IMG/VR virus record: IMGVR_UViG_3300042923_000569
Coordinates: 195,772 to 259,771 of that record
From: a virus
Length of the DNA: 64,000 nucleotides
Direction: 5' to 3' (one strand)
Below the pieces are notes generated by a model, which was given only the letters and a program-made list of their open reading frames with translations, did no database searches and was not told where the DNA came from. This document shows, piece by piece, positions 7,382 through 27,087 of the stretch. A program made the position numbers and the translations under genes. How positions within the stretch are numbered: the stretch's first letter is position 1; each line of letters begins with the position of its first letter.

Positions 7382-8476
7382 TTAATCTAATTCTTTAATA
7401 GCAAGTAGTTTAATATTACCTGAAATTGTAAGTCCTTGATGAGTCATATCAAATTTACAATCATCTTCAACTTCAATAACTGCTGCATAATAGGCATTAC
7501 TAGTTCTATAGTAGTAAGCTGATGGAACGTCATCAATACTTGGATAAACAGTAACATCTTTTCTGAAGTAACTAGATTGATCTAACGTAAATGTTTGTTC
7601 GTGATTATTGTTATCAACATATACACCATTAATCTTACGAATGTACTTAAAGAAAATACGCTGATTAGCATATGGATTTCCTAGTACTGTAAAGAATAAC
7701 ATTTCAATCGTTGGGTTGGTAGCAGTTGGCTTATCCAGATATTCATGTACTGTTTCGATCATAGAAAAAGCATCTTCCATTGTAAAAGGTACTGAATGGT
7801 CGAAGAATTCTGATACATCAATACCATAGAAACCACTTAGCTGATCTTCCAATTCTTCCCATGAAGTAATGTTCAGATCACTAATAGCCATTCCGATCTT
7901 GAACATTTCTTTCTTAGAAATCTTATAACCACGCTCTAAGTATTTTGAAACACGTAGGGAACTCATGATAGGATAACGAGTACCTTTATTAAAAGTTAGT
8001 CTACGTTCTGCAATGTCAGTTACAAACTTATCGTGCAAAACGAATTGCGAAGTACTGAAATCATATGCAGCCATATTGATATGGAAATCATAACTTTTAA
8101 ATATATCAGTCACATCTTGAAAGAAATCAAAATGGATTAATTGAAGTACTAAATCGTTATGAGTGAAGGTTATACTTCTGGAAGTGTGATTTTGACAGGT
8201 AAATTCAAAAGTACTCATATCCAAAAAATCTTCTTCAGACAATGGGAAAGGATCTTCCCCGTCTTCCAAATCACCCTCACTGTTATAAGCATTACGAATG
8301 AAGGTGATAATATCTTTTTTGGATCTGAAATAAATGTCATAGTCATTTACTTCTGCACCAGAAAAGATTGATGTAATTGCACCACCAGCAATAATTGCGT
8401 TTGTAGTGGTAAGCATACTAATTGCATCTTCTCCTAGATTGCGAAGAAGTGTGTTTTTGTGTCGTCCTAGATTCAT
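7382..8476 (-). CDS. putative nucleotidyltransferase (Pol-beta superfamily signature)
   Basis: N-terminal AIIAGGAITSIFSGAEVNDYDIYF fits hGG-x12-DxD-hhh with the spacing of class-II CCA-adding and poly(A) polymerase-type NTases; rest of protein unrecognised. Confidence 0.45.
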   Translation of the reverse strand: MNLGRHKNTLLRNLGEDAISMLTTTNAIIAGGAITSIFSGAEVNDYDIYFRSKKDIITFIRNAYNSEGDLEDGEDPFPLSEEDFLDMSTFEFTCQNHTSRSITFTHNDLVLQLIHFDFFQDVTDIFKSYDFHINMAAYDFSTSQFVLHDKFVTDIAERRLTFNKGTRYPIMSSLRVSKYLERGYKISKKEMFKIGMAISDLNITSWEELEDQLSGFYGIDVSEFFDHSVPFTMEDAFSMIETVHEYLDKPTATNPTIEMLFFTVLGNPYANQRIFFKYIRKINGVYVDNNNHEQTFTLDQSSYFRKDVTVYPSIDDVPSAYYYRTSNAYYAAVIEVEDDCKFDMTHQGLTISGNIKLLAIKELD

Positions 8477-8664
8477 TTACTAAGTTCTTTCCATTGTTTA
8501 ATTATGTCATATATAAAAAATCCTGTTCCTAGTGAACTAATACTAATAGATACACCAGCAAGTATATGAGCTATTTCTAGCTCACCAGTACTTGTATATA
8601 GAAACCACGTACAAGCCCATAACAAGATTAAAGATAGGGCTTGTACAACTAAAACCGTCTTCAT
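8473..8664 (-). CDS. small membrane protein (63 aa)
   Basis: ORF track; hydrophobic; overlaps both neighbours. Confidence 0.4.
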   Translation of the reverse strand: MKTVLVVQALSLILLWACTWFLYTSTGELEIAHILAGVSISISSLGTGFFIYDIIKQWKELSK

Positions 8665-15895: not shown

Positions 15896-16216
15896 CTATA
15901 GTGTTTCATTTTCTTCTGGAACTTCTAGGACTTTATGCCATTCATTAAAGTCCATAAGCATAAGAAAGAAATTGTCTTCATCTTCATCATCCATGTACTG
16001 TACTAATGCATACAGAAACTTATCAGCTTCTTCTTTAACAAAAAATTTTGAAGCAGTTTTAATCCTGTCCAATGCCATTTTGTATGGGACATTTCTCTCT
16101 ACATGAATAATAGAATCATCAAAAAACTGAACTTTATCCGCAGACCAAGGCCAGCCACGTTTCCCTAGCCAAATAAAAACTGGTACGTCATCTTTAAACT
16201 TCAACTTCCGTTTCAT
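15896..16216 (-). CDS. hypothetical protein (106 aa)
   Basis: ORF track. Confidence 0.5.
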   Translation of the reverse strand: MKRKLKFKDDVPVFIWLGKRGWPWSADKVQFFDDSIIHVERNVPYKMALDRIKTASKFFVKEEADKFLYALVQYMDDEDEDNFFLMLMDFNEWHKVLEVPEENETL

Positions 16217-17084
16217 TCTCTTTCATCTCTATCTGTGCTAACATGTCTCTGAACATACTTTTATTACCGACTTCTGTTTCTGAACAGTACTGTACGCTTT
16301 TCTTTAGAACATATAAACCTTGTTGATAGCATTGGAATAGTTCATTAGTTGGAAGCATCAAATCAATATGAAAACAATTTATTTCGTTGTAAAGATTTAT
16401 TATCGATGCATCTTTTAAGTTAGGAAGTACTATCGGATTTCGAAGATAACCATTTCTTTTGCTATCACCAGTAGAACACCAGAAAGTAACTCTCTTATGT
16501 TTATAATTTAATTGCACAGTACTACCGTCACCAAAAAATAATAGACTGCAAGTACAAACACCTTTTGAGTTATAGTACTCTCTTATATTGACGCCATTAG
16601 GCATTAACATGAAAAATTCAGTAGTGCCATTTCGATTAATCTTTTTAGTGTATCTATGATTTTCAAAGTACATAGTATATTCCTGACGCTGAATATCCAT
16701 CCGTAATTTTCTAGTATCACTGAATTCATATCTCTTAGTACTTAATGTTTTAGTACCATCTTTCTTTATCTTGTAGCTGAATCCAACATTATCAAGATCT
16801 ATTCTTTCTAAAAAACGCTCACTTATATAGTGTAATCTGTAAATTCCATCAACCTCTTTAATTGAAAATTCATAATTTTCATTTGGTTCTAACTTTCTAG
16901 AGCTATGACAATAAGATTGGGCTTTATAATGGATATCATTAATTCGATAGTGCTGCTGAGAACCAGTTCTTCCAACAAAAAAATGTACTCGGTTTTCATC
17001 AGTTCCGATTACAAGTGGACTGTTATATCTGTACTTTGCATATTCTATCGCTTCATGTACTGAGTACTGTTTTAAATCAAACAT
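16194..17084 (-). CDS. MORN/YwqK-like repeat protein (296 aa)
   Basis: repeated Y.F..-..G-containing units resembling those in 11640..12164. Confidence 0.5.
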   Translation of the reverse strand: MFDLKQYSVHEAIEYAKYRYNSPLVIGTDENRVHFFVGRTGSQQHYRINDIHYKAQSYCHSSRKLEPNENYEFSIKEVDGIYRLHYISERFLERIDLDNVGFSYKIKKDGTKTLSTKRYEFSDTRKLRMDIQRQEYTMYFENHRYTKKINRNGTTEFFMLMPNGVNIREYYNSKGVCTCSLLFFGDGSTVQLNYKHKRVTFWCSTGDSKRNGYLRNPIVLPNLKDASIINLYNEINCFHIDLMLPTNELFQCYQQGLYVLKKSVQYCSETEVGNKSMFRDMLAQIEMKENETEVEV

Positions 17085-17266
17085 TATTTCTTTCCATAAA
17101 CGTCAAAGGACGCATCATAGCGTCCTTTGTATTTCCCATTACCTTTTTTCATTTCTTTCTTTTGATCAACAAACGTTTTTGGTTTGTTAAAAGTCTCCAT
17201 ATGCTTTGCAACAGGATTCTCAACAATTGGTGTAAGTTTTTTTACACCCTTTTTAGACTTTGCCAT
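17084..17266 (-). CDS. small basic protein (60 aa)
   Basis: ORF track; Lys-rich. Confidence 0.4.
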   Translation of the reverse strand: MAKSKKGVKKLTPIVENPVAKHMETFNKPKTFVDQKKEMKKGNGKYKGRYDASFDVYGKK

Positions 17267-17269
17267 CTG

Positions 17270-17746
17270 TTACTCCAGTTGAGGGTTTTTTAATGTTAAA
17301 CTTTCTATATCGTCGGAGGTTATCATAACATGCGGTTCACCTTCTGTAAAGAGAAAATCATGATAACTTTCACTTACAGTAAAATGATCCATAACAAAAC
17401 CTTTGGACAGAAACATTAAAATATGTTTGTCATCTGGCTTGGTGTAGGTATTACGTAACTTCTCTACTTCGGATTGTGGGGTACTTCCTGGGTTGTTTCT
17501 CATGACACACTGATTGAAAGTAGTGTTCATTGTCATTGGCGTAGCCATAATCCATTTCTCAGTACTGTTAACAGTTACTGCAAAACAATTACAATTAGGA
17601 TTATTGAAAAATTCGTACATAGTTGTACTACAAAGGAATAGACATTGTACAATATCCTTGATAGAAAACATTAACCCATGTACCTCAAATGCATCTTTAG
17701 TGATCACATCTTCAATCGGCCCATTATCTTTATGAATAATATTCAT
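17270..17746 (-). CDS. hypothetical protein (158 aa)
   Basis: ORF track; preceded by a TATAAATA late-promoter-like box. Confidence 0.55.
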   Translation of the reverse strand: MNIIHKDNGPIEDVITKDAFEVHGLMFSIKDIVQCLFLCSTTMYEFFNNPNCNCFAVTVNSTEKWIMATPMTMNTTFNQCVMRNNPGSTPQSEVEKLRNTYTKPDDKHILMFLSKGFVMDHFTVSESYHDFLFTEGEPHVMITSDDIESLTLKNPQLE

Positions 17747-17794
17747 GTGTTCACTCCTTGAACTCTTTTAATGCACGTTCCAGTGCTCTAAAAG

Positions 17795-17802
17795 TATTTA
17801 TA
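17795..17802 (-). promoter_or_regulatory. T4-type late promoter box TATAAATA
   Basis: minus strand gagTATAAATActtt about 50 nt upstream of the ATG at 17746; the only exact match seen among intergenic regions. Confidence 0.45.
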
Positions 17803-17821
17803 CTCATCCTTGAGTACATGT

Positions 17822-18265
17822 TTAGGCCGCAGCAATTTTCCGCAAGAATTCACTATGAACTCTACGGCACATTTCTATAGTACTTTGCATTGTACTGTAA
17901 TCAAATTCAACCGGTAATCCAAACACGGAACCGTTGTTGTCAAACACTTCAGGAAGTTCTTCTAACGTAAAAGTACCTTCAAATAGGTTAGTACTCAGTT
18001 CAGAACCAGCTTGAACAAAAAAGAACTCAGGACTATATCGTATTACAAGATTCTTCTTGTCAATAGCAATATTACATAAATCCTGTAAGTTCTGTGTTCG
18101 TACTTTTAACTTGAATACATTCTTTCGTACTTCCTGTACATCAAGTGAGTATCCGTCACCGATGTAGTAGTTATTTCTTGGGGCTAAGTCTAACCCGTTA
18201 ATGTTACTTAAAATATCCTGAATAATAAAATTTATAGGATCAATATTATCAATTATACTAAGCAT
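17822..18265 (-). CDS. member of the tandem YFQ-motif paralog family (147 aa)
   Basis: ...EFFFVQ...TLEELPE resembles the shared motif of the array. Confidence 0.5.
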   Translation of the reverse strand: MLSIIDNIDPINFIIQDILSNINGLDLAPRNNYYIGDGYSLDVQEVRKNVFKLKVRTQNLQDLCNIAIDKKNLVIRYSPEFFFVQAGSELSTNLFEGTFTLEELPEVFDNNGSVFGLPVEFDYSTMQSTIEMCRRVHSEFLRKIAAA

Positions 18266-18812
18266 TACTCAAACCCATTTCATCTAGTAATTTATCAATT
18301 GCTTTGATATGATGTTCCTCCAAATCTCCCATAGAAACTTGCAAAGAAACAATTTCTAAATCTTTTATTTCATTTAGTAACTTACATGATTCCTCGTAAA
18401 AGAATTCTTCAGGTAAATCGTATCGTGTTAAGTTCTGAAAATACATAGCTTCATCGTGAACAAAAGGATACTCAATCCTTAACTCATCAAAGTATGCTAC
18501 TTGGCACGTCTTATTTAATGGACTATAATTTATCCATCTTGGATTAACTGAGTTACCGGAATTAATTTCCTGATAGTGCAACATACCAGCACAGTTAGTA
18601 CTTTTAAAACTTTCCGACCTGTCCGTGCAAATCCTGACAGAAACATTGTGATCTTTTACAATTACAATTTCTACATCATCGCATTTAGATACAATCTTGT
18701 GACTATGATTATTCTCTTGAAAGTACTTGTCAAGCTTAATAAGAGAATCAATAATAAACTTACCTGAATCTAGGAGTTCTTTATATTCTTCACGCGTTAA
18801 ATTAATTTTCAT
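18258..18812 (-). CDS. tandem YFQ-motif paralog (184 aa)
   Basis: YPFVHDEAMYFQNLTRYDLPEEFF. Confidence 0.55.
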   Translation of the reverse strand: MKINLTREEYKELLDSGKFIIDSLIKLDKYFQENNHSHKIVSKCDDVEIVIVKDHNVSVRICTDRSESFKSTNCAGMLHYQEINSGNSVNPRWINYSPLNKTCQVAYFDELRIEYPFVHDEAMYFQNLTRYDLPEEFFYEESCKLLNEIKDLEIVSLQVSMGDLEEHHIKAIDKLLDEMGLSNA

Positions 18813-19255
18813 TCTAATATTTCCAAATCATAACGGTACTGGTCAGCATGAATACCACGTAAGTAATCTTCTGCTACATCCATATGCATTTTAGTACAAT
18901 CCAAAATCTTAATCTTTGATGTTTCAAAGAAACAGTACGAAGGTACTACATCTGGTTCATACTCATTGATGTAACGTATGTAATCATAATCAACTTCATC
19001 GTTGAGTAGTTGGTAATATAATTTCTTCCAGCCAGAATCAGAACCCTGATCTTTTGCTTCATATTCTTCGCCTAATTCAATTAAGCAACGATGAATATAG
19101 ATACTATCTAATGTTAAATCTCGAAGATGCCTTCGATCTTGTTTGAGTTTAAGTAAAGCACAATCAACGGCACTCATCATTCCACCCAAGTGTAATCCAC
19201 CAAATGGAACATAAAACTCTTCAATTTTAACAGTACTGGCATGAAATACAATCAT
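18809..19255 (-). CDS. hypothetical protein in the paralog array (148 aa)
   Basis: ORF track; weak motif similarity only. Confidence 0.5.
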   Translation of the reverse strand: MIVFHASTVKIEEFYVPFGGLHLGGMMSAVDCALLKLKQDRRHLRDLTLDSIYIHRCLIELGEEYEAKDQGSDSGWKKLYYQLLNDEVDYDYIRYINEYEPDVVPSYCFFETSKIKILDCTKMHMDVAEDYLRGIHADQYRYDLEILE

Positions 19256-19839
19256 ATGATAATGAACCCGTCTAGTACATCTAAGTTAAATGTGGATAAA
19301 TCGGAAACTTCAATAATAATTTCATTATCATTTATTCGTTTGTAAAATTCAAAACAGAAATCAATCTCTTTTTGGAACTGTTCATATTCTACAATATTCT
19401 GTACAGTCATTTGCTGGAAAAACCATTCTTCAGGTCGTTCTAATAAAATATCTTCAACATCAGCATATAAATCAACTAATACCCGATTAGTTTTATAATC
19501 AATACTATCACCAACAACAATAGAAAACTCCCACCCGCCTTTGTAACAAAAATAATCATTGCACACAATGCTGTCATAAAATTCAATATTGTAGTCTTCG
19601 GTTCTACGTATGGAAAACATTGCTCCCTCGTCAGGTGCTGCATCTGATTCATATACATAAAACCCGTCACCCCTCATACAAACATCTAAACCTAAACCTT
19701 TGTAATTGTAAAACATGAAGTTATAGTACTGTCCATTTTCAATGGATTCTTTGTACTTTTCTTCCATCATCTTATAAAGATTATAAACGTACATCAATTT
19801 ATTAATTGTATTAGTATTATAGAAATCATATCTGTTCAT
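19252..19839 (-). CDS. tandem YFQ-motif paralog (195 aa)
   Basis: ERPEEWFFQQMTVQNIVEYEQF. Confidence 0.55.
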   Translation of the reverse strand: MNRYDFYNTNTINKLMYVYNLYKMMEEKYKESIENGQYYNFMFYNYKGLGLDVCMRGDGFYVYESDAAPDEGAMFSIRRTEDYNIEFYDSIVCNDYFCYKGGWEFSIVVGDSIDYKTNRVLVDLYADVEDILLERPEEWFFQQMTVQNIVEYEQFQKEIDFCFEFYKRINDNEIIIEVSDLSTFNLDVLDGFIII

Positions 19840-20345
19840 TACAAAGAACCTAAGTGTGTCTCTTTAAGACGGTTAATGTGTGTACGTATTGCATTCAGAG
19901 TAAGTGGACTTATCATTCTATGAATATACCCATTGAAACCTTTGGTATAAAGAATACAACAAATATAGTACTCATACAGTTCTTTATCTGTCATAACAGT
20001 ACTTAACTGAAAGTCCAAGTCTTCTTTAAACTCTGATACATTAATAAGTTCTCTGCTAACGTATCGATTACACTTTTTATCAATACCATTAAAAAACCAA
20101 AACGTATCATACAAATCTGTTAAACCTGGATTAAACATTAAAAAAGTTTCAAAAATATCGGTTCTTGAATCTCTTATCCTGATAGTACTTTTATTAAAAA
20201 AATATTTGTTCTTTAGTGTATTATAATTATTTGTATAAAGTCCAGAAGACTTGGTAAGTACATCAAGTAATTCGGTATGAATATCTTTTATATCCATAAT
20301 CTTCTGAACGTAGAACTCAGCACGTTCGAATATTCTTAAACTCAT
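19839..20345 (-). CDS. hypothetical protein in the paralog array (168 aa)
   Basis: ORF track. Confidence 0.5.
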   Translation of the reverse strand: MSLRIFERAEFYVQKIMDIKDIHTELLDVLTKSSGLYTNNYNTLKNKYFFNKSTIRIRDSRTDIFETFLMFNPGLTDLYDTFWFFNGIDKKCNRYVSRELINVSEFKEDLDFQLSTVMTDKELYEYYICCILYTKGFNGYIHRMISPLTLNAIRTHINRLKETHLGSL

Positions 20346-20953
20346 AATTTCTTCAAACTCCGAAAAGTACCAATTACTAATTTCATACCATCAGTTATTG
20401 ATTTAACAAGCTTAGGATCTGAGATAAGATTTTGTATAGGTTCTTCACACTCAGATTCTTTAGCACTGTTTAAATGAATCCCCGTCAGATAATCAGTACT
20501 GTAATAGCTCATTACCTTATCATAGAATGTTTCTGGTGCTAAATCCAGAACAGACAAATACTGAAAGTACTGTTCTTCCTGGATAGGATAGTTCATCTGA
20601 TGATCATATTTTTCAGCACCAGCAGAACCCACCAAACTAATAACTGACGAAGATGCTCTCCGACCACATTCAATCTGAATGTTCAAATCATCAGTATAAA
20701 CAATCGTATTTTCAGTAATGTAATCGTAATATAAGTAAATCATATACACAAATGAATCATTAATCAGTTTGAATGAGACTGAATCAGGAAACACGCTAAA
20801 CCGAAATTCTACTCCACTCTTGGTTCCACCAAAGTTATAAGGTTTATCTGGAATGAAATTTTTATCGTTAATTGCAATACGAAGACCTTCCAACTCAGTA
20901 ATTACTTCCGAAAAACTTTCGGTAATATCCTGTACTAACTCTAACCGTAACAT
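20342..20953 (-). CDS. tandem YFQ-motif paralog (203 aa)
   Basis: NYPIQEEQYFQYLSVLDLAPETFY. Confidence 0.55.
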   Translation of the reverse strand: MLRLELVQDITESFSEVITELEGLRIAINDKNFIPDKPYNFGGTKSGVEFRFSVFPDSVSFKLINDSFVYMIYLYYDYITENTIVYTDDLNIQIECGRRASSSVISLVGSAGAEKYDHQMNYPIQEEQYFQYLSVLDLAPETFYDKVMSYYSTDYLTGIHLNSAKESECEEPIQNLISDPKLVKSITDGMKLVIGTFRSLKKL

Positions 20954-21086
20954 CTTCGCCCCGTCGCCGCGTGCCGCCCATTATATCTTGATAACTATAA
21001 TGAGAAGCGGAAATTTTTTTTGGTCATTTTTTAACCTGCCTTTTTTAAGGCAACACTTATTTATGCAAACCAAAAGAGGCCATTTT

Positions 21087-21707
21087 TCAATAGCCTTGTG
21101 TCTTAAAGCGTTTAATCTCTTCTGTCATTAAACCTTTTGTCGCATCCATAACGTATTGTACCACATTATCTAAACTTGTTTCATTTAATAGCGGATTCGA
21201 TAAATGCATCTGCGTATGAAACGCCTGAAACATTGGACAACTTTCAATAACGTACTGACTCGTGTACATAAACCTATCAATCAAATCCTCTGAAGGTAAT
21301 TCCATTTGTGTTAAACGCTGAAAGTACTCAGCCTCGTCTAAAGGATATTTTAACGTAACATTTTCACGTTTCCACAAACTCACTATTTTCACTAAATTTA
21401 TTTCATCGGTCAAACCACCCGTAACACTCAAAATACCTGGTTCGAAAAACCTAATCTCTGATGACTTCTCAGTACTACCATGATACAACCAAACTGAATG
21501 AAATAATGGTAACTTCTCTCCGTCTTCCCGAATGCTATGAACGTCAAATGTCATTCTGTCATGCACGAATCGTACCAACCTTATATATACATGGTCAGTA
21601 CTATATTCCAAATCATCCTGTACACCTGGAGTAAAAGTACCAACAAGCTTCTGTACTTCAGCTAAAGCCTGATAGAACTCTAAAAACTTTATCCTGTTGT
21701 CTGACAT
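21087..21707 (-). CDS. tandem YFQ-motif paralog (206 aa)
   Basis: YPLDEAEYFQRLTQMELPSEDLI. Confidence 0.55.
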   Translation of the reverse strand: MSDNRIKFLEFYQALAEVQKLVGTFTPGVQDDLEYSTDHVYIRLVRFVHDRMTFDVHSIREDGEKLPLFHSVWLYHGSTEKSSEIRFFEPGILSVTGGLTDEINLVKIVSLWKRENVTLKYPLDEAEYFQRLTQMELPSEDLIDRFMYTSQYVIESCPMFQAFHTQMHLSNPLLNETSLDNVVQYVMDATKGLMTEEIKRFKTQGY

Positions 21708-22252
21708 AATAATTCCTTTAGTACGTGTATTAGGTGCCGTAAATCGTCTTCACTGAGAATATCGTATACATTGAAATTAATCTGTACTCTAGGATGCTCA
21801 GGACTGTAGTTACGGTACAAGTGTTCAAGTATCATAGCATTGACTTCATTCTGTGTGTACTTTGTTAGTAGCTGGAACTCCATCGATTCTAATTCATCGT
21901 GACTTAATCGTTCATCAGGAGAGTAAGGTAAAGATGGAAAACTATTCCTTGCCATATATAATTGTGCTGAACTTTCTCTTACTATATCCCTAAAGGTATT
22001 GTATCGTGTCTGTATCGTAAAATTATAGTCATCCCTCAAAGTACTATTAAGCGGTGCACTAAAGTCCTGTAAAGAAATAAACTCAGTGTAAGTAATCACA
22101 TACAATGCAGTACTTGCACTATAACTGAAAAGCCTATAAGTCTTGTCAGACTTGTCAGATGGGAGTATCCTTATCTCATCATTAACTACTTTCTCATGGA
22201 AATGTAAGTCTTTAAGTAAACATACCAATTCCGCTAGGAGTACAATTTTCAT
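21689..22252 (-). CDS. tandem YFQ-motif paralog (187 aa)
   Basis: YSPDERLSHDELESMEFQLLTKYTQNEV. Confidence 0.5.
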   Translation of the reverse strand: MKIVLLAELVCLLKDLHFHEKVVNDEIRILPSDKSDKTYRLFSYSASTALYVITYTEFISLQDFSAPLNSTLRDDYNFTIQTRYNTFRDIVRESSAQLYMARNSFPSLPYSPDERLSHDELESMEFQLLTKYTQNEVNAMILEHLYRNYSPEHPRVQINFNVYDILSEDDLRHLIHVLKELLCQTTG

Positions 22253-22824
22253 TTCATCGAACTCTTAAGATAAGGAACCAGAATATTAACTACTTCATGA
22301 GGTTCTAACATATCATGATATAGTACCACCCCAACGCTAAGTGCATCGTAGTTGGACAGTAGCTGTTGCATAACCCTAACCTCATCATCCAAGATTTTAT
22401 ACTGTTCTTCAGTAAGTAAGTTCTGGACAGTCATCAACTGAAAGTACTGTTCTTCACTGAAAGGATATGGCATAAAAGTATAAGGACTTTTAGAATCTTT
22501 GGAGTTATCCTTATCGTACAGTGCGTAATATCTTGGGAAGTCAGGTTTCCAGTGTGCTAGACGAATACTGTTCTCTGTTATAGTACTGAAGTACTGGTCT
22601 TTGCTATTATAACTAATCTCGTAGATAGTAGTTCTACCAGTAGGTAATTCACGGTGTAATCTTAGAATCCTGTCTAAACTTACAAAAGGGTTCTCTATAA
22701 ATTCTATTACATAACCGTGTTCTATTATTGTAGTATCACACTTTCTTGGGTTAGCGTTGTACATTAAAGGTACTAAAGCCGCCCACGTACCAATGAACAT
22801 ATCCTGTAGTTTATCGTAATCCAT
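22249..22824 (-). CDS. tandem YFQ-motif paralog (191 aa)
   Basis: MPYPFSEEQYFQLMTVQNLLTEEQY. Confidence 0.55.
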   Translation of the reverse strand: MDYDKLQDMFIGTWAALVPLMYNANPRKCDTTIIEHGYVIEFIENPFVSLDRILRLHRELPTGRTTIYEISYNSKDQYFSTITENSIRLAHWKPDFPRYYALYDKDNSKDSKSPYTFMPYPFSEEQYFQLMTVQNLLTEEQYKILDDEVRVMQQLLSNYDALSVGVVLYHDMLEPHEVVNILVPYLKSSMK

Positions 22825-22833
22825 ATCGTGCCT

Positions 22834-23349
22834 TTATAGTAGTTCTGTTAAGTTTAAAAATCGTATAGTGCAACGTTTAAGTCGTTCAGTCTTTTGCTCT
22901 ATACTGTTGTCATCTTCGTTGGTTATCGTGATGCAATCGTAGGGAAGTTTTGCTTCGGTATAGAAAGTACTGCACAGGTTGCTTAACATCGTAGGTTCAT
23001 CGTGTAGTGACATTTGCTGAAATATGAACTCATCAGTGAGTGCTATCGTGCTGTACTTATCGTACTCATAATCTACTGGTGCGATTTGACCTGGACATTT
23101 CAGTACAGTACTTCGGTTGTTAGTTTTCCATCCTGGTTCTTGATCTCGACCAATGATAGTATAAAGATTGTTGATATTAAAAATCATATTGTTTTTCTGT
23201 TTATAAGTAAGATTTAATCCTTCAACTGGTGAAATCGACCCTTCTAATTTAAAGTGCTTAAAGTATTGCTCTAATTTAAAGAACAGTATGTTGCCCGAAA
23301 CGGACATATCAATGTATGCCCGAACGTATTCCTGTATATCACCAAACAT
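22834..23349 (-). CDS. tandem YFQ-motif paralog (171 aa)
   Basis: ALTDEFIFQQMSLHDEPTML. Confidence 0.5.
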   Translation of the reverse strand: MFGDIQEYVRAYIDMSVSGNILFFKLEQYFKHFKLEGSISPVEGLNLTYKQKNNMIFNINNLYTIIGRDQEPGWKTNNRSTVLKCPGQIAPVDYEYDKYSTIALTDEFIFQQMSLHDEPTMLSNLCSTFYTEAKLPYDCITITNEDDNSIEQKTERLKRCTIRFLNLTELL

Positions 23350-23410
23350 GTAAAACCTTTATCCTTATACCCCATTTATGTGTCGCTAAGCGTTACTGGC
23401 CTTTAGTACT

Positions 23411-23447
23411 AAAAAAATAAAACCATAGTCCAATGGTTTTTATTTTA
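23411..23447. terminator. bidirectional rho-independent terminator
   Basis: aaaaccatagtccaatggtttt flanked by an A-run and a T-run. Confidence 0.6.
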
Positions 23448-23553
23448 GAAATGTCAAGGGATTACCTGTGCATTTTAAAAGTCAAGAAGTTTTATTTTGA
23501 GGTAACTATTTTTTGCACCTATATAAAAGTACGCTAATCCTTCGCAGGACACG

Positions 23554-23754
23554 TTATACGCGGCGTACAGTACAGCCTGACGTACCATACTCCACCTGGT
23601 ACTCTGAGCCAGTAGGTAGTCGCTCAAGGGCGTTGCGTAGCGTGGTAGTCTTCTTCACGCTGATAGGTAGCTGACGTAGTACTACATGCACTGCTTCATC
23701 AGTACTATTAACCTGAGCCACGATGGAACCGAGGCAACCGATAACTGTAAACAT
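23554..23754 (-). CDS. hypothetical protein (66 aa) in a GC-richer island
   Basis: first ATG has an AAGGA RBS (aaggacaataagattATG); the track ORF (23554..23793) begins inside a promoter -10 element. Confidence 0.4.
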   Translation of the reverse strand: MFTVIGCLGSIVAQVNSTDEAVHVVLRQLPISVKKTTTLRNALERLPTGSEYQVEYGTSGCTVRRV

Positions 23755-23791
23755 AATCTTATTGTCCTTATGAATAGGGAAAGCCACCAGC

Positions 23792-23820
23792 ATTGTGCCA
23801 GTGGCTTAGGGATTTGTCAA
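23792..23820 (-). promoter_or_regulatory. sigma70-like promoter (TTGACA-17-CACAAT)
   Basis: minus strand agtacTTGACAaatccctaagccactggCACAATg. Confidence 0.45.
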
Positions 23821-23834
23821 GTACTATTGTACTT

Positions 23835-24131
23835 TTAATTATTGTCCTGCTGCAATTCATATTTGAATGATACGAGATCATCATTCAGATAGAATGTACT
23901 GTGACCAGGTTTAACATCAGCGTGACCATCAACTGACTGTTTGTAGTTTGACTCCAGCCATTCCATCTGGTCTTGCTGGTCTTCAGGGTCGGTAATCCCG
24001 CACGCCATCAGCACCATCATTACCGCCAGTTGTCTAGGGTTTTCAGTACCAACCAGGTTGATTCTAATGTCCAGTACGTTGAAGCCAAAACGGTTTACAG
24101 AAACATTAACGAACGGGGTAGATGTAGCCAT
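23835..24131 (-). CDS. hypothetical protein (98 aa)
   Basis: ATG at 24131 preceded by GGAG at -9; the longer track ORF (to 24212) lacks an RBS. Confidence 0.5.
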   Translation of the reverse strand: MATSTPFVNVSVNRFGFNVLDIRINLVGTENPRQLAVMMVLMACGITDPEDQQDQMEWLESNYKQSVDGHADVKPGHSTFYLNDDLVSFKYELQQDNN

Positions 24132-24232
24132 GATGTAAATCTCCGGGGTAATGTGAAAAGCACTATTGCCTTCCGATGAATATATAATACTACTACCTAT
24201 CCGAGTACGCAAGTACTTTCTTAAAGATTATT

Positions 24233-24478
24233 CTAAGAAATGTATTCAATACTTACTACCATATCATTGCTAATATATCCTCTGCCGTTACCTGATACGC
24301 AGGCACGATAGTTAATCTCTGCTATTGCCTGATGGTCTTCGCGTTTAGTACTGTTAGTTGCAGCCATTGTAAGATCCACCAGCACTCTCATATGCCCAGG
24401 GGTCTTATCGCGGTTCAATGTGAATTCAGTAATATCAGTGTTGCCTAATGATACAGTTACTTTAATCTGATTTGACAT
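24233..24478 (-). CDS. hypothetical protein (81 aa)
   Basis: ORF track. Confidence 0.5.
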   Translation of the reverse strand: MSNQIKVTVSLGNTDITEFTLNRDKTPGHMRVLVDLTMAATNSTKREDHQAIAEINYRACVSGNGRGYISNDMVVSIEYIS

Positions 24479-24534
24479 ATCCGTGCCCCTAGAGAAAGTG
24501 GGAAGTAGTCTTACTTCCCGATGTGATTAATATA

Positions 24535-24804
24535 CTACTTAGCGATCTTTGCTGCAAGTACTTTCAAGAATGTTTTCAATTCTTTTTCGTTAGAAGTTTC
24601 TAACAGTACATTGCCATTAATTTCATTTACTTTGAATGAACCGTTGGCATACACTCTTACAAAGTACATTGGTTCTGCTGCATCTTCTTCATCATCGATA
24701 GACCAGAACTCTACTTCAGTAGCTTCTTCATCATCGATTGTTTCCATGAAGTCTGCAACCTGGTTAGCACCAAACAGTTTATTCAGCAGGGTGATAATTT
24801 TCAT
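24535..24804 (-). CDS. hypothetical protein (89 aa, acidic)
   Basis: ORF track; early-type promoter about 35 nt upstream. Confidence 0.55.
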   Translation of the reverse strand: MKIITLLNKLFGANQVADFMETIDDEEATEVEFWSIDDEEDAAEPMYFVRVYANGSFKVNEINGNVLLETSNEKELKTFLKVLAAKIAK

Positions 24805-24836
24805 TTCGTTTACTCCGTTGCGTTTCCGATGTAGTA

Positions 24837-24865
24837 ATAATAGTACTTCTGAATGTTTAACGCAA
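24837..24865 (-). promoter_or_regulatory. early-type promoter, AGTACT cassette (TTGCGT-17-TATTAT)
   Basis: minus strand aaaaagGCTTGCGTtaaacattcagaagtacTATTATtactacatcgg; an A/T-rich UP-like tract lies upstream. Confidence 0.55.
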
Positions 24866-24910
24866 GCCTTTTTTAAATTAAAAGTATAATTTTTTATTTG
24901 CTGTAGGGTA

Positions 24911-24939
24911 TTGACAGGCCACCAGCACTAAGGCATAAT
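24911..24939 (+). promoter_or_regulatory. consensus sigma70-like promoter facing away from the genes (TTGACA-17-CATAAT)
   Basis: gtaTTGACAggccaccagcactaaggCATAATtaacac; would make a ~150-nt plus-strand RNA ending at the 25078-25103 terminator. Confidence 0.5.
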
Positions 24940-24950
24940 TAACACACAGA

Positions 24951-25036
24951 CGGCGAAACGTCTTTGACCCATAGGGTGCGGAGCTATATAAAAAATAAAA
25001 GTACTATCCAATAGATAGATCTATGCACCCTATGGG
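24951..25036. repeat. quasi-palindromic intergenic element (CCCATAGGGTGC arms), copy 1
   Basis: small hairpin gacgGCGAAAcgtc, then arm cccatagggtgc(ggag) 24968-24983, ~41-nt loop, arm gcaccctatggg 25025-25036. Confidence 0.6.
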
Positions 25037-25077
25037 CTTAGTGGCTGTATCTGCCAATGAGATAAGTATAGCAAAAA

Positions 25078-25103
25078 GGGCTGACCGAAGTCAACCCCTT
25101 TTA
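25078..25103. terminator. conserved hairpin terminator of the GGGCTGAC-CGAA-GTCAACCC family
   Basis: perfect stem only in the minus-strand transcript (G-U replaces C.A); U-runs on both sides. Confidence 0.6.
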
Positions 25104-25118
25104 TGTAATTCTTTTTGG

Positions 25119-25289
25119 TTATGCTGGCTGGTGATCGTGACGGCCTTTAGTGTAGGCGTCCTCTAATTCTTTACGTTGCCAGGTATCGAGTGAGTTAAAC
25201 AAAAGGCGGTTATCATTATCAACCGGGCGGTTGTTGGTTCCTAATTCGTACCAACGTACTTTCAACATTTCTAAATCTACTTGAACCAT
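25119..25289 (-). CDS. small protein (56 aa; below the track cutoff); paralog of 25385..25594
   Basis: hand translation MVQVDLEMLKVRWYELGTNNRPVDNDNRLLFNSLDTWQRKELEDAY...; AAGGA RBS; shares LK(I/V)RWY and LF(D/N)SL motifs with its paralog. Confidence 0.45.
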   Translation of the reverse strand: MVQVDLEMLKVRWYELGTNNRPVDNDNRLLFNSLDTWQRKELEDAYTKGRHDHQPA

Positions 25290-25384
25290 TTTGTACTATC
25301 CTTATGGACTCATTGTAACGATTATATAATGTGGGTTATACTAAGTCAACCCTATTGATATTATTTTTTATTATGACTGGAATT

Positions 25385-25594
25385 TTAGAATGTCTTTACT
25401 GTTGGTAGTACTGTTGATTGCATCCACGTTTCTGATTCATCGTTGACGCCGTACAGATAGGCTTTCTTTAGTTCAGCCTGGATGTGGGATGGAAGGGAAT
25501 CGAATAGTTCTTTGTCTTTCCCAATGATTGGATTTCCTGCAACTGCCTGCTTGTACCAACGGATTTTTAAAGCTTCGACTTGACTGTTTTGCAT
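25385..25594 (-). CDS. small protein (69 aa); paralog of 25119..25289
   Basis: ORF track. Confidence 0.5.
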   Translation of the reverse strand: MQNSQVEALKIRWYKQAVAGNPIIGKDKELFDSLPSHIQAELKKAYLYGVNDESETWMQSTVLPTVKTF

Positions 25595-25709
25595 TGTTGG
25601 CCTACACCTTTCTTTGTTTTGTTAAGAACATCTTATCGGATTCCTCTTAATCTGTCAACTACCTTGACGAATTTTATTTTATGGTCTACCGTCAGGCTTA
25701 GTTGAGATA

Positions 25710-25740
25710 TAAAAAAAGAGGTTGACAATTGCCAACCTCT
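25710..25740 (-). terminator. rho-independent terminator
   Basis: minus strand agaggttggcaattgtcaacctct then T7. Confidence 0.6.
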
Positions 25741-25762
25741 GTGAATCTAAACGTGTAATAGG

Positions 25763-26107
25763 TTAAACGCTGTATGTTTCGATCTGATGCTGCTTGATCG
25801 CATTGCGTTGTACTGCATCCAATTTATTAAACGCTGGCGATCCGTATGCAGGTTCGATCTGAGTCCAGTTTTCCAGGTTGATAGGTTGCCCGTATGCGAT
25901 AGCCTGAAGCATACGCATAATGCGACGGTTCTGGATATCACGGATTTCCCGATCCGTTTTATCTTCATCTGACAACAGAGAAGATTCCAGCTTGAAGCGG
26001 CGACCATTGTAATCTTGTCCAGCGATTACATATTCAGTACTGTTATTTTTACCCGGCGACGTCATTACAAACAAGTTCATCTTCATGTAATTATCCTCCA
26101 TAAACAA
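25763..26107 (-). CDS. hypothetical protein (114 aa)
   Basis: ORF track; overlapping ORF 25747..26007 judged spurious. Confidence 0.5.
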   Translation of the reverse strand: MFMEDNYMKMNLFVMTSPGKNNSTEYVIAGQDYNGRRFKLESSLLSDEDKTDREIRDIQNRRIMRMLQAIAYGQPINLENWTQIEPAYGSPAFNKLDAVQRNAIKQHQIETYSV

Positions 26108-26127
26108 TATAATATGATTATAGGCTA

Positions 26128-26156
26128 AGGGCTGACGGTTGTCAACCCTTTTTTTA
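26128..26156. terminator. terminator hairpin, variant of the family (loop GGTT)
   Basis: agggctgacggttgtcaaccct then T7. Confidence 0.5.
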
Positions 26157-26166
26157 TATTTTAAAC

Positions 26167-27087
26167 TTAAAAATCGAGAAGTTCTTCAGGTTCGGCGTTT
26201 TTCAGTGCCAGCCTCTGATCTACCAGGTTCATCGCCATTTGCCAGAGTGAGCTATTCAACACGATGTTTTTATCAATGTTGGTGATAGCACGGCTGGTGC
26301 GTTTGCGTCCTGTTTCTGGATTGAAGCCTGACTGCCCGCCTTGCATCAAATGCTGTTGAACCGTATTAAAAGTACTATACAGGGAATTATCGTATTTGTC
26401 AGTACTATTTAAGCCTTTATGTGATAAAAGTGAACGCGGCTGGAATACGGCGTTTGTGAAATCACCGTTAAGCGGCATACCTTCTTTTAACACATACGCG
26501 GCAATGGCGAATGAATCACGTTCTGAAATGTTCAGATCAATCTGTTTCATTTCTTCTTTATAACGTTCAATATCATCAAAGTCTTTTACTACAGTGTAAA
26601 CACCTTCGATAACATCATCCATAACGCCTTTGCCTTTCGTGCCATTACCTTTGTGATAGATTTTAGTATTGTGTGACATATCACCCATTACTAAACCATT
26701 AGCACAAACAAAGCGAAATTGTCCCGCCATTAACTGGTAAGCACTTGTACCATCATTGGCATTCACCAAAATGATTTCGTTTGCTTCACCTTCAACCTTA
26801 CCAGGCTGACGGAAACGGATCATATGTTTAGTATAATCACGTTTGGTAGTATCGCGTACTTTTGCCTGTATCGCGTACATAGGAAAATAGTTTTCTTGTG
26901 CCAGGCGATCAACAATGTCAATCGTTGCCACTGGTGCAAATCTTGATGACCGGCTTTCGTGCCCTTCAACTGCGAAGATTGAAGGAACCACTTCTAACAG
27001 TTCAGTACGGTTCAATGGACGGTTATCTTTAAGGGCAAAGCCGTTGATTCCTTGATACATTTTGTTCATGGGATAGCCTCTAAGCAT
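26167..27087 (-). CDS. DUF932-like protein (phage/plasmid-like protein family, PF06067-type)
   Basis: remembered family hallmarks SIFAxEGHESRS and DGTSAYQLMAGQFRFVCANGLV; identification from memory only. Confidence 0.5.
   Translation of the reverse strand: MLRGYPMNKMYQGINGFALKDNRPLNRTELLEVVPSIFAVEGHESRSSRFAPVATIDIVDRLAQENYFPMYAIQAKVRDTTKRDYTKHMIRFRQPGKVEGEANEIILVNANDGTSAYQLMAGQFRFVCANGLVMGDMSHNTKIYHKGNGTKGKGVMDDVIEGVYTVVKDFDDIERYKEEMKQIDLNISERDSFAIAAYVLKEGMPLNGDFTNAVFQPRSLLSHKGLNSTDKYDNSLYSTFNTVQQHLMQGGQSGFNPETGRKRTSRAITNIDKNIVLNSSLWQMAMNLVDQRLALKNAEPEELLDF

What the first reader, a model, noticed from the sequence alone, without database searches (positions are those of the whole stretch)
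17822..23349. Tandem array of about ten paralogous genes sharing a P(Y/F)xxEExYFQxLT...LPEE motif
Ten consecutive, mostly 4-nt-overlapping genes of 147-206 aa fill 5.5 kb. At least seven share a ~125-aa N-domain followed by the motif [YPF]-x-[DE]E-x-YFQ-x-[LM]T-x3-[LD]-x-[EP]E and a variable acidic tail. The motif instances are YPFVHDEAMYFQNLTRYDLPEE, NYPIQEEQYFQYLSVLDLAPE, YPLDEAEYFQRLTQMELPSE, PYPFSEEQYFQLMTVQNLLTEE, PEEWFFQQMTVQNIV, DEFIFQQMSLHDEP and ESMEFQLLTKYTQNE. Large, rapidly diverging tandem families in phage early regions typically encode host-takeover or anti-defence factors. I cannot place this family in any known domain.
Basis: seen in the sequence. Interest (0 to 1): 0.6.

Follow-up and report, generated by a model that had tools for sequence, protein, structure and literature searches.

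The report
Jumbo-phage multigene family with invariant FQ motif
Eight of the ten back-to-back genes belong to a fast-evolving protein family with no matching fold among solved structures, found so far only in RaK2/GAP32-like giant phages (up to about 40 copies per genome); its function is unknown, and an ADP-ribosyltransferase-like gene sits inside the array.

Summary
The array is real, but it is not ten paralogs. Eight minus-strand genes (W_01 to W_07 and W_09) form one family. Support comes from profile-profile alignments, iterative HMM searches with no reversed-decoy hits, and fold matches to paralogs. W_01 is the weakest member. W_08 and W_10 are unrelated single-copy genes, and W_08 models as an ADP-ribosyltransferase fold.

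The array is syntenic in GAP32, CBB, BF, fHe-Yen9-04, XbC2 and Kaldavass. It is much larger in RaK2 (about 29 copies) and 121Q (about 39). Across 125 non-redundant members only E-E-x-Φ-F-Q-x-[SL]-T survives, and F and Q are invariant.

Family orthologs share 18-45% identity, against 73-86% for the flanking genes. dN/dS is about 0.07-0.47 against 0.02-0.09, still well below 1.

The most likely role is a set of non-virion, host-directed binding proteins used for host takeover or anti-defence. That role is inferred, and expression timing has not been shown.

The parts
22834..23349 (-). W_01, 171 aa. Probable, weakest family member, with motif TDEFIFQQMSLHD.
   Evidence: Motif aligned. jackhmmer reaches it only from the W_06 seed, at 2e-07. 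hhalign to the p06b group gives 22.7%. It has no ortholog in the six reference phages.
22249..22824 (-). W_02, 191 aa. Family member, with motif PYPFSEEQYFQLMTVQN.
   Evidence: hhalign p02-p07 95% and p02-p05 83%. jackhmmer E 1e-14 to 5e-29 from five seeds. Orthologs in all six reference phages.
21689..22252 (-). W_03, 187 aa. Family member, with motif HDELESMEFQLLTKY.
   Evidence: hhalign p02b-p03 97%. As a jackhmmer seed it recovers 128 family sequences with no decoys.
21087..21707 (-). W_04, 206 aa. Family member whose structure was predicted, with motif YPLDEAEYFQRLTQMELPSE.
20342..20953 (-). W_05, 203 aa. Family member, with motif NYPIQEEQYFQYLSVLDLAPE.
   Evidence: hhalign p04-p05 97.3%, E 1.7e-11, over 131 columns.
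19839..20345 (-). W_06, 168 aa.
   Evidence: Motif seen. jackhmmer from the 121Q gp400 seed gives 2e-09 and from the RaK2 ORF431 seed 1e-14. As a seed it recovers the RaK2 and 121Q subfamilies.
19252..19839 (-). W_07, 195 aa. Family member and the most acidic (pI 4.1), with motif RPEEWFFQQMTVQN.
   Evidence: hhalign p02-p07 95%. jackhmmer hits. pI.
18809..19255 (-). W_08, 148 aa. Not a family member. Conserved single-copy gene with a predicted ADP-ribosyltransferase fold, embedded in the array.
18258..18812 (-). W_09, 184 aa. Family member, overlapping the stop of W_08 by 4 nt, with motif YPFVHDEAMYFQNLTRYDLPEE.
   Evidence: hhalign p05-p09 93% and p04-p09 92%. jackhmmer E 8e-26 to 1e-36. This group is absent from CBB.
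17822..18265 (-). W_10, 147 aa. Not a family member. Conserved single-copy gene of unknown function.
   Evidence: 73-83% identity to orthologs. No profile link to the family, with probability of 1.1% or less. It matches its own PHROG, 15293.
20954..21086 (-). Conserved non-coding block between W_04 and W_05. It contains an ATAAATAAGTGTT box, an A-tract, TTTCCGCTTCTCATTATAGnTATCAAGATAtAATGG (promoter-like) and a GC-rich leader.
   Evidence: 88.8% nucleotide identity to an unannotated GAP32 stretch. The seven-phage alignment has long invariant runs although the flanking genes share under 40% amino-acid identity. The 19-mer occurs once in the window. No credible Rfam match: one sub-threshold chance hit, Histone3, E 0.38, on the opposite strand within this block.
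23350..23560 (-). Conserved non-coding block upstream of the first array gene. It has two TTGAC(T/A) boxes and CTAAAGGCCAGTAACGCTTAGCG...ATAAnnGGGGTATAAG.
   Evidence: The six-phage alignment shows conservation although the first gene differs between phages. In CBB the annotated 22,456-bp terminal repeat ends inside the aligned block, 64 bp before the first array gene.

Best explanation
The locus is a tandemly amplified, lineage-specific multigene family of small (about 100-235 aa), mostly acidic proteins. No signal peptide or membrane segment is apparent, though this was not formally predicted.

Shown:
- Eight members are packed into two tightly spaced, overlapping gene blocks on one strand, together with an ADP-ribosyltransferase-fold gene.
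- The W_04 model has a variable N-terminal beta meander. This is followed by the one conserved element, a two-turn helix E-[EA]-x-Φ-F-Q-x-[SLM]-T, and then a helix-strand-helix module.
- The family is restricted to RaK2/GAP32-like jumbo phages. Gene content differs between close relatives. The genes are under purifying selection that is 5-10 times more relaxed than in the neighbouring genes.

Inferred:
- The proteins are non-virion products made inside the infected cell. They act as a diversified panel of binding proteins against host factors, for host takeover or counter-defence.
- The invariant F-Q helix either locks the helical module onto the sheet or makes a contact shared by all members. 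The fast-evolving strands beta5 to beta7 and their loops carry the specificity.
- Duplication, loss and divergence of copies follow an accordion pattern and track different hosts.
For: Family reality:
- hhalign between ortholog-group profiles.
- Decoy-controlled jackhmmer searches.
- Foldseek matches of the W_04 model to paralogs in GAP32, Yen9-03/04, pEa_SNUABM_47 and RaK2.

Real genes: dN/dS is 0.07-0.47 in all pairs.

Fast evolution:
- Ortholog identity is 18-45% against 73-86% for W_10 and W_11.
- Within the p04 group the motif segment shows 0.57 mean identity, against 0.13-0.18 for beta5, beta7 and loop 76-82.

Gene-content flux: groups p02b, p06, p06b, p07 and p09 are each missing from some of the seven phages, and position 1 differs between phages. 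Copy number is about 29 in RaK2 and about 39 in 121Q.

Restriction to this clade: 36 clusters among 1.84 billion proteins, all of 236 aa or fewer. The core-profile search found only RaK2-like phage proteins.

Not virion proteins: none of the array genes carries the 'virion structural protein' label that neighbouring genes have in GAP32, BF, CBB and Yen9-04.

Host-directed context:
- An ADP-ribosyltransferase-fold gene lies inside the operon in every genome.
- The array starts 64 bp past the terminal-repeat end reported for CBB.
- The array is followed by RNA ligase, polynucleotide kinase and Dam methylase genes.

Acidity: pI is 4.1-5.2 for seven of the eight members.
Against: - No expression-timing, interaction or phenotype data exist for any member. 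Literature searches found none.
- The sigma-70 scan found no more sites than expected by chance in the region, and no clear consensus promoter directly upstream of W_01.
- dN/dS is below 1 everywhere, so positive selection is not demonstrated.
- No similarity to any known anti-defence or takeover protein was found. PADLOC, the one defence-related library here, covers defence proteins, not anti-defence proteins.
- The conserved motif could be purely structural.
Confidence: 0.45

Rival explanations
1. The family serves the phage itself, for example as regulators or chaperones of replication, transcription or assembly, or as a hetero-oligomer built from paralogs. The F-Q helix would then be only a fold-stabilising keystone.
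For: Positional orthologs are kept in all seven GAP32-like phages, and dN/dS is below 1. Tight translational coupling would suit stoichiometric co-assembly. The conserved residues (acidic helix N-terminus, an aromatic pair, a capping Thr, and LPxEE before the next helix) look like helix-capping and packing features.
Against: Copy number and membership vary widely between close relatives, from 6 to about 39 copies, which is unusual for core machinery. Divergence is 5-10 times faster than in the neighbouring genes. An absolutely invariant Gln in 125 of 125 members is more than packing usually requires.
Confidence: 0.25
2. Family members are partners of the embedded ADP-ribosyltransferase-fold enzyme W_08, as specificity adaptors, inhibitors or substrates. 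The constant helix would dock on the enzyme and the variable sheet would choose the target.
For: The W_08 ortholog lies inside the array in every genome examined, including RaK2 and 121Q. In the window, W_08 overlaps W_09 by 4 nt. The closest structural neighbours of W_08 are RES-type toxins, which work with a cognate partner protein.
Against: There is one W_08 copy against 6 to about 39 family copies. CBB lacks the p09 gene that follows W_08 elsewhere. No interaction test could be run here.
Confidence: 0.1
3. The motif is a cleavage site. E-x-x-Y-F-Q followed by a variable residue resembles the recognition sites of Gln-specific 3C/TEV-type proteases (resemblance recalled from memory). Members would then be processed into an N-terminal sheet and a C-terminal helical piece.
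For: The conserved positions E(P6), aromatic(P3), F(P2) and Q(P1) in 125 members match the E-x-x-Y-x-Q pattern. RaK2 ORF419 reads EEGYFQGS.
Against: The motif is modelled with high confidence as a helix within a confidently modelled domain, not as an extended linker. The residue after Q is usually large (Y, L or Q). No Gln-specific protease was identified in these phages. Head-maturation proteases of T4-like phages cut after Glu (established knowledge).
Confidence: 0.03
4. The genes encode virion decorations, such as the hairs or whiskers seen on CBB and 121Q.
For: These phages have unusual hair-like fibres (PMC5259590 and PMC7824862). Multi-paralog sets are common among fibre proteins.
Against: No array gene is annotated as a virion structural protein in GAP32, BF, CBB or Yen9-04, although neighbouring genes are. 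The proteins are small and globular and contain no repeats.
Confidence: 0.05
5. The motif is a compositional coincidence and the genes are unrelated.
For: Pairwise BLASTP E-values are weak, 1e-4 at best.
Against: Profile-profile E-values reach 1e-11, with clean negative controls. Five iterative searches gave no reversed decoys. Paralogs share a predicted fold. In the window, a strict form of the motif (which itself catches only five of the eight members) hits array genes plus one N-terminal chance match.
Confidence: 0.02

Closest known systems
Multigene families and 'genomic accordions' of large eukaryotic DNA viruses (ASFV MGF360/505, poxvirus terminal gene families; the general concept is cited in PMC13359090)
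   Same: Tandem arrays of diverged paralogs near a genome end. Copy number and membership differ between close relatives. Evolution is faster than in core genes. A host-interaction role is presumed.
   Different: There is no sequence or fold relationship. The host is bacterial. The function here is untested. Members are small single-domain proteins that share only a nine-residue helix.
Early or host-takeover gene clusters next to terminal repeats in large lytic phages (SPO1 host-takeover module, T5 pre-early region, T4 early ORF clusters; from general knowledge)
   Same: Runs of small, overlapping genes of unknown function on one strand, adjacent to the terminal redundancy and alongside host-modifying enzymes. 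T4 has the ADP-ribosyltransferases Alt, ModA and ModB; here there is the ADP-ribosyltransferase-fold W_08.
   Different: Those clusters are mostly unrelated genes rather than one amplified family. Early expression is demonstrated for them and not for this array.
[not shown]
T4 GoF (PHROG 13003, 'goF mRNA metabolism modulator')
   Same: W_09 gave a borderline hit to this PHROG, E 0.0098, at residues 100-172.
   Different: T4 GoF itself scores -0.9 bits against the family HMM with all filters off. The lead is rejected.
PHROG families 27532, 24375, 23172, 26432, 22368, 27549 and 34619
   Same: These families hold the orthologs of individual window genes, and some cross-hit weakly.
   Different: PHROGs splits the family into separate groups, all labelled 'unknown function'. 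The common family and its spread into RaK2 and 121Q are not recorded there. They are also missing from the CBB paralog table.

Membership tests
FQ-helix family of RaK2-like jumbo phages (defined here) | Significant profile similarity to other members | tested here: met
   W_02 to W_07 and W_09: hhalign up to 97% and jackhmmer E 1e-8 to 1e-36 with no decoys. W_01 is reached from one seed only (2e-07). W_08 and W_10 are not met.
FQ-helix family of RaK2-like jumbo phages (defined here) | Motif [DE]-[EA]-x-Φ-F-Q-x-[SLM]-[TS], 100-140 residues from the N-terminus in full-length members | tested here: met
   Present in eight window genes. F and Q are present in 125 of 125 non-redundant members, E in 104 and T in 100. 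The alignment is anchored on the motif, so this invariance is partly a selection effect.
FQ-helix family of RaK2-like jumbo phages (defined here) | Shared predicted fold | tested here: met
   The W_04 model matches BFVD models from GAP32, fHe-Yen9-03/04 and pEa_SNUABM_47 and RaK2 H6X4N8, at E 2.5e-19 to 5e-4. Their lengths suggest they are paralogs from several ortholog groups, which is an inference. Only W_04 itself was modelled here.
ADP-ribosyltransferase superfamily (for W_08 only) | ADP-ribosyltransferase core fold | tested here: met
   [not shown]
ADP-ribosyltransferase superfamily (for W_08 only) | Catalytic H-Y-E (or R-S-E) residues and NAD+ binding | tested here: inconclusive
   FHAST (H5) and YINEYE (Y95, N97, E100) are invariant, and I-Y-I-H (H55 invariant, Y53 not) is largely conserved, in 15 orthologs. 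They resemble the PARP motifs HGS, GIYF and YNEY as I recall them, but they were not superposed. There is no sequence-level PDB or Pfam hit.
T4 GoF | Sequence or profile similarity to T4 GoF | tested here: not met
   The family HMM against T4 GoF scores -0.9 bits.
YbaB/EbfC | Significant fold or profile match | tested here: not met
   [not shown]
Phage early / host-takeover genes | Transcription from early (host sigma-70) promoters soon after infection | tested here: inconclusive
   Conserved non-coding blocks with TTGAC boxes and TATAAT-like elements are present. The consensus scan is not enriched over shuffled sequence (47 found against 39.6 ± 5.8) and gives no clear site just upstream of W_01. 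No transcriptome was found.
Known anti-defence proteins | Homology to a characterised anti-defence protein | not testable with these tools
   No anti-defence library is available. Pfam, PHROGs, NCBIfam, PADLOC and PDB gave no informative hit.
Virion structural proteins | Detected in virions | not tested
   Indirect evidence only. Records for GAP32, BF, CBB and Yen9-04 label nearby genes as virion structural proteins but none of the array genes.

The most novel reading that the evidence does not exclude
The family is a modular targeting system. The invariant E-E-x-Φ-F-Q-x-S-T helix docks every member onto one common hub, either the co-encoded ADP-ribosyltransferase-fold enzyme W_08 or a single host machine. 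The hypervariable beta sheet of each paralog recognises a different host protein. A jumbo phage would then carry a library of 8-40 interchangeable adaptors that direct one activity to many targets. This would be a phage counterpart of the viral F-box/ankyrin or MGF adaptor families, built on a fold with no match among solved structures.
Probability: 0.1. Interest if true: 0.85.

Novelty: new variant of a known kind. Interest (0 to 1): 0.55.

Why it matters
Amplified, fast-evolving gene families are the classic mark of host-virus conflict in large eukaryotic viruses. Few have been defined in phages. This one accounts for about 8 genes in GAP32-like phages and about 30-40 genes in RaK2- and 121Q-like phages, which is roughly 5-7% of their genes.

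Tried and rejected
- Pairwise BLASTP alone is too weak to prove paralogy. Profiles were needed.
- The PHROG 'goF' lead was rejected, because T4 GoF does not match the family HMM. The SEIDFQTMS string in T4 motB.1 is N-terminal and the HMM does not align it, so it is treated as chance.
- Pfam, NCBIfam, PADLOC and PDB-sequence searches, with single sequences and with profiles, gave nothing above noise.
- The afdb50 fold library was unavailable.
- The word-indexed searches returned only 14 hits for the full-length profile and 6 for the core profile, all phage-like.
- Rfam on 17000-26500 gave only a sub-threshold chance hit.
- The conserved W_04/W_05 promoter-like 19-mer has no second copy in the window, so no promoter class could be defined.
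- Literature searches found no description of this family and no transcriptome for a RaK2-like phage.
- Vibrio phage 2.275.O has a W_11 ortholog but no detectable family member. Xanthomonas phage XaC1 has a similar array, but only 2 genes match the profile and a third carries the motif.
- Model coordinates are not exposed, so burial of F129 and Q130 could not be measured.

Full report
SOURCE OF THE WINDOW. The window comes from an undescribed jumbo phage of the GAP32/CBB/BF group (Mimasvirus and Eneladusvirus). Conserved genes downstream of the array share about 77-79% nucleotide identity with those phages. The array itself hardly matches at DNA level. Proteins identical or nearly identical to window genes are recorded on a 71.5-kb Logan contig (SRR35179801), which carries the same array, and on a 357,873-bp JGI contig.

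GENE LAYOUT. I name the genes in transcription order on the minus strand:
- W_01 22834-23349
- W_02 22249-22824
- W_03 21689-22252
- W_04 21087-21707
- W_05 20342-20953
- W_06 19839-20345
- W_07 19252-19839
- W_08 18809-19255
- W_09 18258-18812
- W_10 17822-18265
- W_11 17270-17746, which lies just outside the finding

Seven of the nine junctions inside the finding overlap. Four overlap by 4 nt and the others by 1, 8 and 19 nt. Two junctions are gaps of 9 and 133 nt.

IS IT A FAMILY? Pairwise BLASTP gives only weak matches restricted to the motif, with a best E of 1e-4. I fetched the syntenic arrays of six relatives: GAP32, XbC2, BF, CBB, fHe-Yen9-04 and Kaldavass. I grouped the genes into positional ortholog groups and compared the group profiles with hhalign.

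The groups form a connected network:
- p04-p05: 97.3%, E 1.7e-11, over 131 columns
- p02b-p03: 97%
- p02-p07: 95%
- p05-p09: 93%
- p04-p09: 92%
- p02-p05: 83%
- several links through p06b

The groups of W_08, W_10 and W_11 never exceed 1.1% probability against anything.

I then ran jackhmmer on all ORFs of the window and the loci, adding reversed-sequence decoys. No decoy was hit from any seed. These searches unite W_02 to W_07 and W_09. W_06 joins through the RaK2 and 121Q seeds. W_01 joins only from the W_06 seed, at 2e-07.

In the window, a strict form of the motif (which itself catches only five of the eight members) hits array genes plus one N-terminal chance match elsewhere. The result is eight members, with W_01 the weakest, and two non-members. 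W_06 (KEDLDFQLSTVMTD) was missed.

HOW BIG IS THE FAMILY? A profile search of 1.84 billion representative proteins found only 36 clusters with E of 1e-3 or less. All are 56-236 aa long and none is fused to another domain.

Sequence search from the GAP32-like profile alone understates the family. W_11 has orthologs across all RaK2-like phages. The regions upstream of those orthologs in RaK2 and 121Q are long arrays of genes of similar size.

The motif recurs there as [ST]-E-E-x-Φ-F-Q-[YHQ]-S-T-[LIV]-Y. Iterative searches assign about 29 RaK2 genes and about 39 121Q genes to the family. Some of these are short (99-140 aa) and keep the motif and the C-terminal part.

XaC1 has a similar array, but only two genes match the profile and a third carries the motif. 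Vibrio phage 2.275.O has no detectable member.

Across 125 members that are non-redundant at 70% identity, only four positions are conserved (W_04 numbering): E125 in 104 members, F129 in 125, Q130 in 125 and T133 in 100. The alignment is anchored on the motif, so part of this invariance is a selection effect.

Published work did not recognise the family:
- The CBB paralog table omits CBB_53-58.
- The RaK2 paper says only that about 10% of its gene products are paralogs.
- PHROGs splits the family into separate function-unknown groups.

STRUCTURE. AlphaFold2 on W_04 with a 22-sequence alignment gives pLDDT 90.5 and pTM 0.84. The predicted elements are as follows:
- two N-terminal helices
- an eight-strand antiparallel meander, residues 31-120
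- a two-turn helix at 125-132 that carries the E-A-E-Y-F-Q-R-L motif
- a loop ending in L-P-x-E
- helix 140-156
- strand 160-167
- C-terminal helices

The part after the motif is therefore a folded module, not a loose acidic tail.

Foldseek against BFVD finds only uncharacterised proteins from the same phage clade, whose lengths fit several ortholog groups, plus RaK2 H6X4N8. This independently supports a common fold.

By helical periodicity, Y128, F129 and L132 would face one side of the motif helix. E126, Q130 and T133 would face the other.

EVOLUTION.
- Orthologs of family members share 18-45% identity with the window proteins. The figure is 54-57% for W_08, 73-83% for W_10 and 82-86% for W_11.
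- Nei-Gojobori dN/dS between close phage pairs is 0.07-0.47 for family genes, 0.08-0.21 for W_08 and 0.02-0.09 for W_10 and W_11.
- The genes are therefore real and constrained, but much less constrained than their neighbours. Gene-wide positive selection is not shown.
- Within the p04 orthogroup the motif segment is the most conserved, with mean pairwise identity 0.57. Strands beta5 and beta7 and loop 76-82 are the least conserved, at 0.13-0.18.
- Gene content differs between close relatives:

| Group | Missing from |
|---|---|
| p02b | window, BF, CBB |
| p06 | Kaldavass, XbC2 |
| p06b | window, Yen9-04 |
| p07 | GAP32, CBB |
| p09 | CBB |

- Position 1 of the array holds different genes in different phages.

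CONTEXT.
- W_08 sits inside the array in every genome, including RaK2 and 121Q. It models with pLDDT 83 as an ADP-ribosyltransferase fold.
- Its invariant FHAST and YINEYE motifs and largely conserved I-Y-I-H motif suggest an H-Y-E-type active site. This is unproven, and there is no sequence-level hit.
- Two non-coding blocks are far better conserved than the genes around them.
- The first block is the W_04/W_05 gap. It has a T4-late-like ATAAATA box, an A-tract, a promoter-like CCGCTTCT...TATAAT element and a GC-rich leader.
- The second block is about 200 nt upstream of the first array gene. In CBB it contains the end of the annotated 22,456-bp terminal repeat, 64 bp before the array (PMC5259590).
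- None of the array genes is labelled as a virion protein in the reference records, whereas neighbouring genes are.
- Seven of the eight members are acidic, with pI 4.1-5.2.
- G+C is 0.32-0.34 in the array and 0.38-0.40 upstream of it.

INTERPRETATION. The following points are shown:
- It is a clade-restricted, amplified family.
- One helix motif is invariant.
- The family diverges fast but under constraint.
- Gene content changes between close relatives.
- The family is linked to an ADP-ribosyltransferase-fold gene.

The function is inferred. I rate non-virion, host-directed binding proteins for takeover or anti-defence at about 0.45. The rivals are:
- a phage-internal role with a purely structural motif, 0.25
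- partners of W_08, 0.1
- virion decoration, 0.05
- a Gln-specific protease site, 0.03, because E-x-x-Y-F-Q resembles TEV/3C sites but the motif is modelled as a helix in a confidently modelled domain
- chance, 0.02 or less, already refuted

No expression, interaction or phenotype data exist for any member. The sigma-70 scan is not enriched over shuffled sequence. The 'early' label therefore remains unproven.

Noticed in passing
[not shown]
   Followed up: partly
window 20954-21086 (-): The intergenic block between W_04 and W_05 is far more conserved than the flanking genes, at 88.8% nucleotide identity to GAP32. It has an ATAAATAAGTGTT box, an A-tract, TTTCCGCTTCTCATTATAG...TATAAT and a GC-rich leader. 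It probably holds an internal promoter or regulatory site. The class is undefined and the 19-mer occurs once in the window.
   Followed up: partly
window 23350-23560 (-); L004 (CBB) about 8300-8520: About 200 nt of non-coding sequence upstream of the array is conserved in six phages, even though the first gene differs between them. In CBB the annotated 22,456-bp terminal repeat ends inside this block, so it may mark the repeat boundary or a regulatory site.
   Followed up: partly
L010+L007 (RaK2 246-275 kb); L011+L008 (121Q 160-188 kb): The same family is greatly amplified in RaK2 (about 29 genes) and 121Q (about 39 genes). It includes short forms of 99-140 aa that keep the motif and the C-terminal module. 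All are annotated as hypothetical proteins.
   Followed up: partly
window 22834-23349 (-): W_01 has no ortholog in the six reference phages. The first position of the array holds a different gene in XbC2/Kaldavass and in Yen9-04, so the upstream end of the array turns over fastest.
   Followed up: partly
family motif, e.g. W_04 residues 125-131; L007:1823-2314 (RaK2 ORF419, EEGYFQGS): The conserved E-x-x-Y-F-Q string matches the TEV/3C-type protease site pattern E-x-x-Y-x-Q (recalled from memory). This is probably coincidental, because the model places it in a helix.
   Followed up: partly
window 17822-18265 and 17270-17746 (-): W_10 and W_11 are strongly conserved single-copy genes (73-86% identity, dN/dS 0.02-0.09) of unknown function. 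They close the array in all RaK2-like phages. W_11 has orthologs as far as Xanthomonas phage XaC1 and a Vibrio phage.
   Followed up: partly
window 16001-26000: G+C drops from 0.38-0.40 upstream of the array (22-32 kb) to 0.32-0.34 within and downstream of it. GC skew is also more negative across the array.
   Followed up: no
L012:3292-3651 (T4 motB.1): T4 MotB.1 carries SEIDFQTMS near its N-terminus, which resembles the motif. The family HMM does not align it, so it is likely chance.
   Followed up: partly
L013 10260-19483 (Xanthomonas phage XaC1): XaC1 has a comparable run of 19 overlapping genes of 135-190 aa upstream of its W_11 ortholog. Only two match the family profile and one more carries FDEYRFQYST. 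It may be a highly diverged branch of the family.
   Followed up: partly
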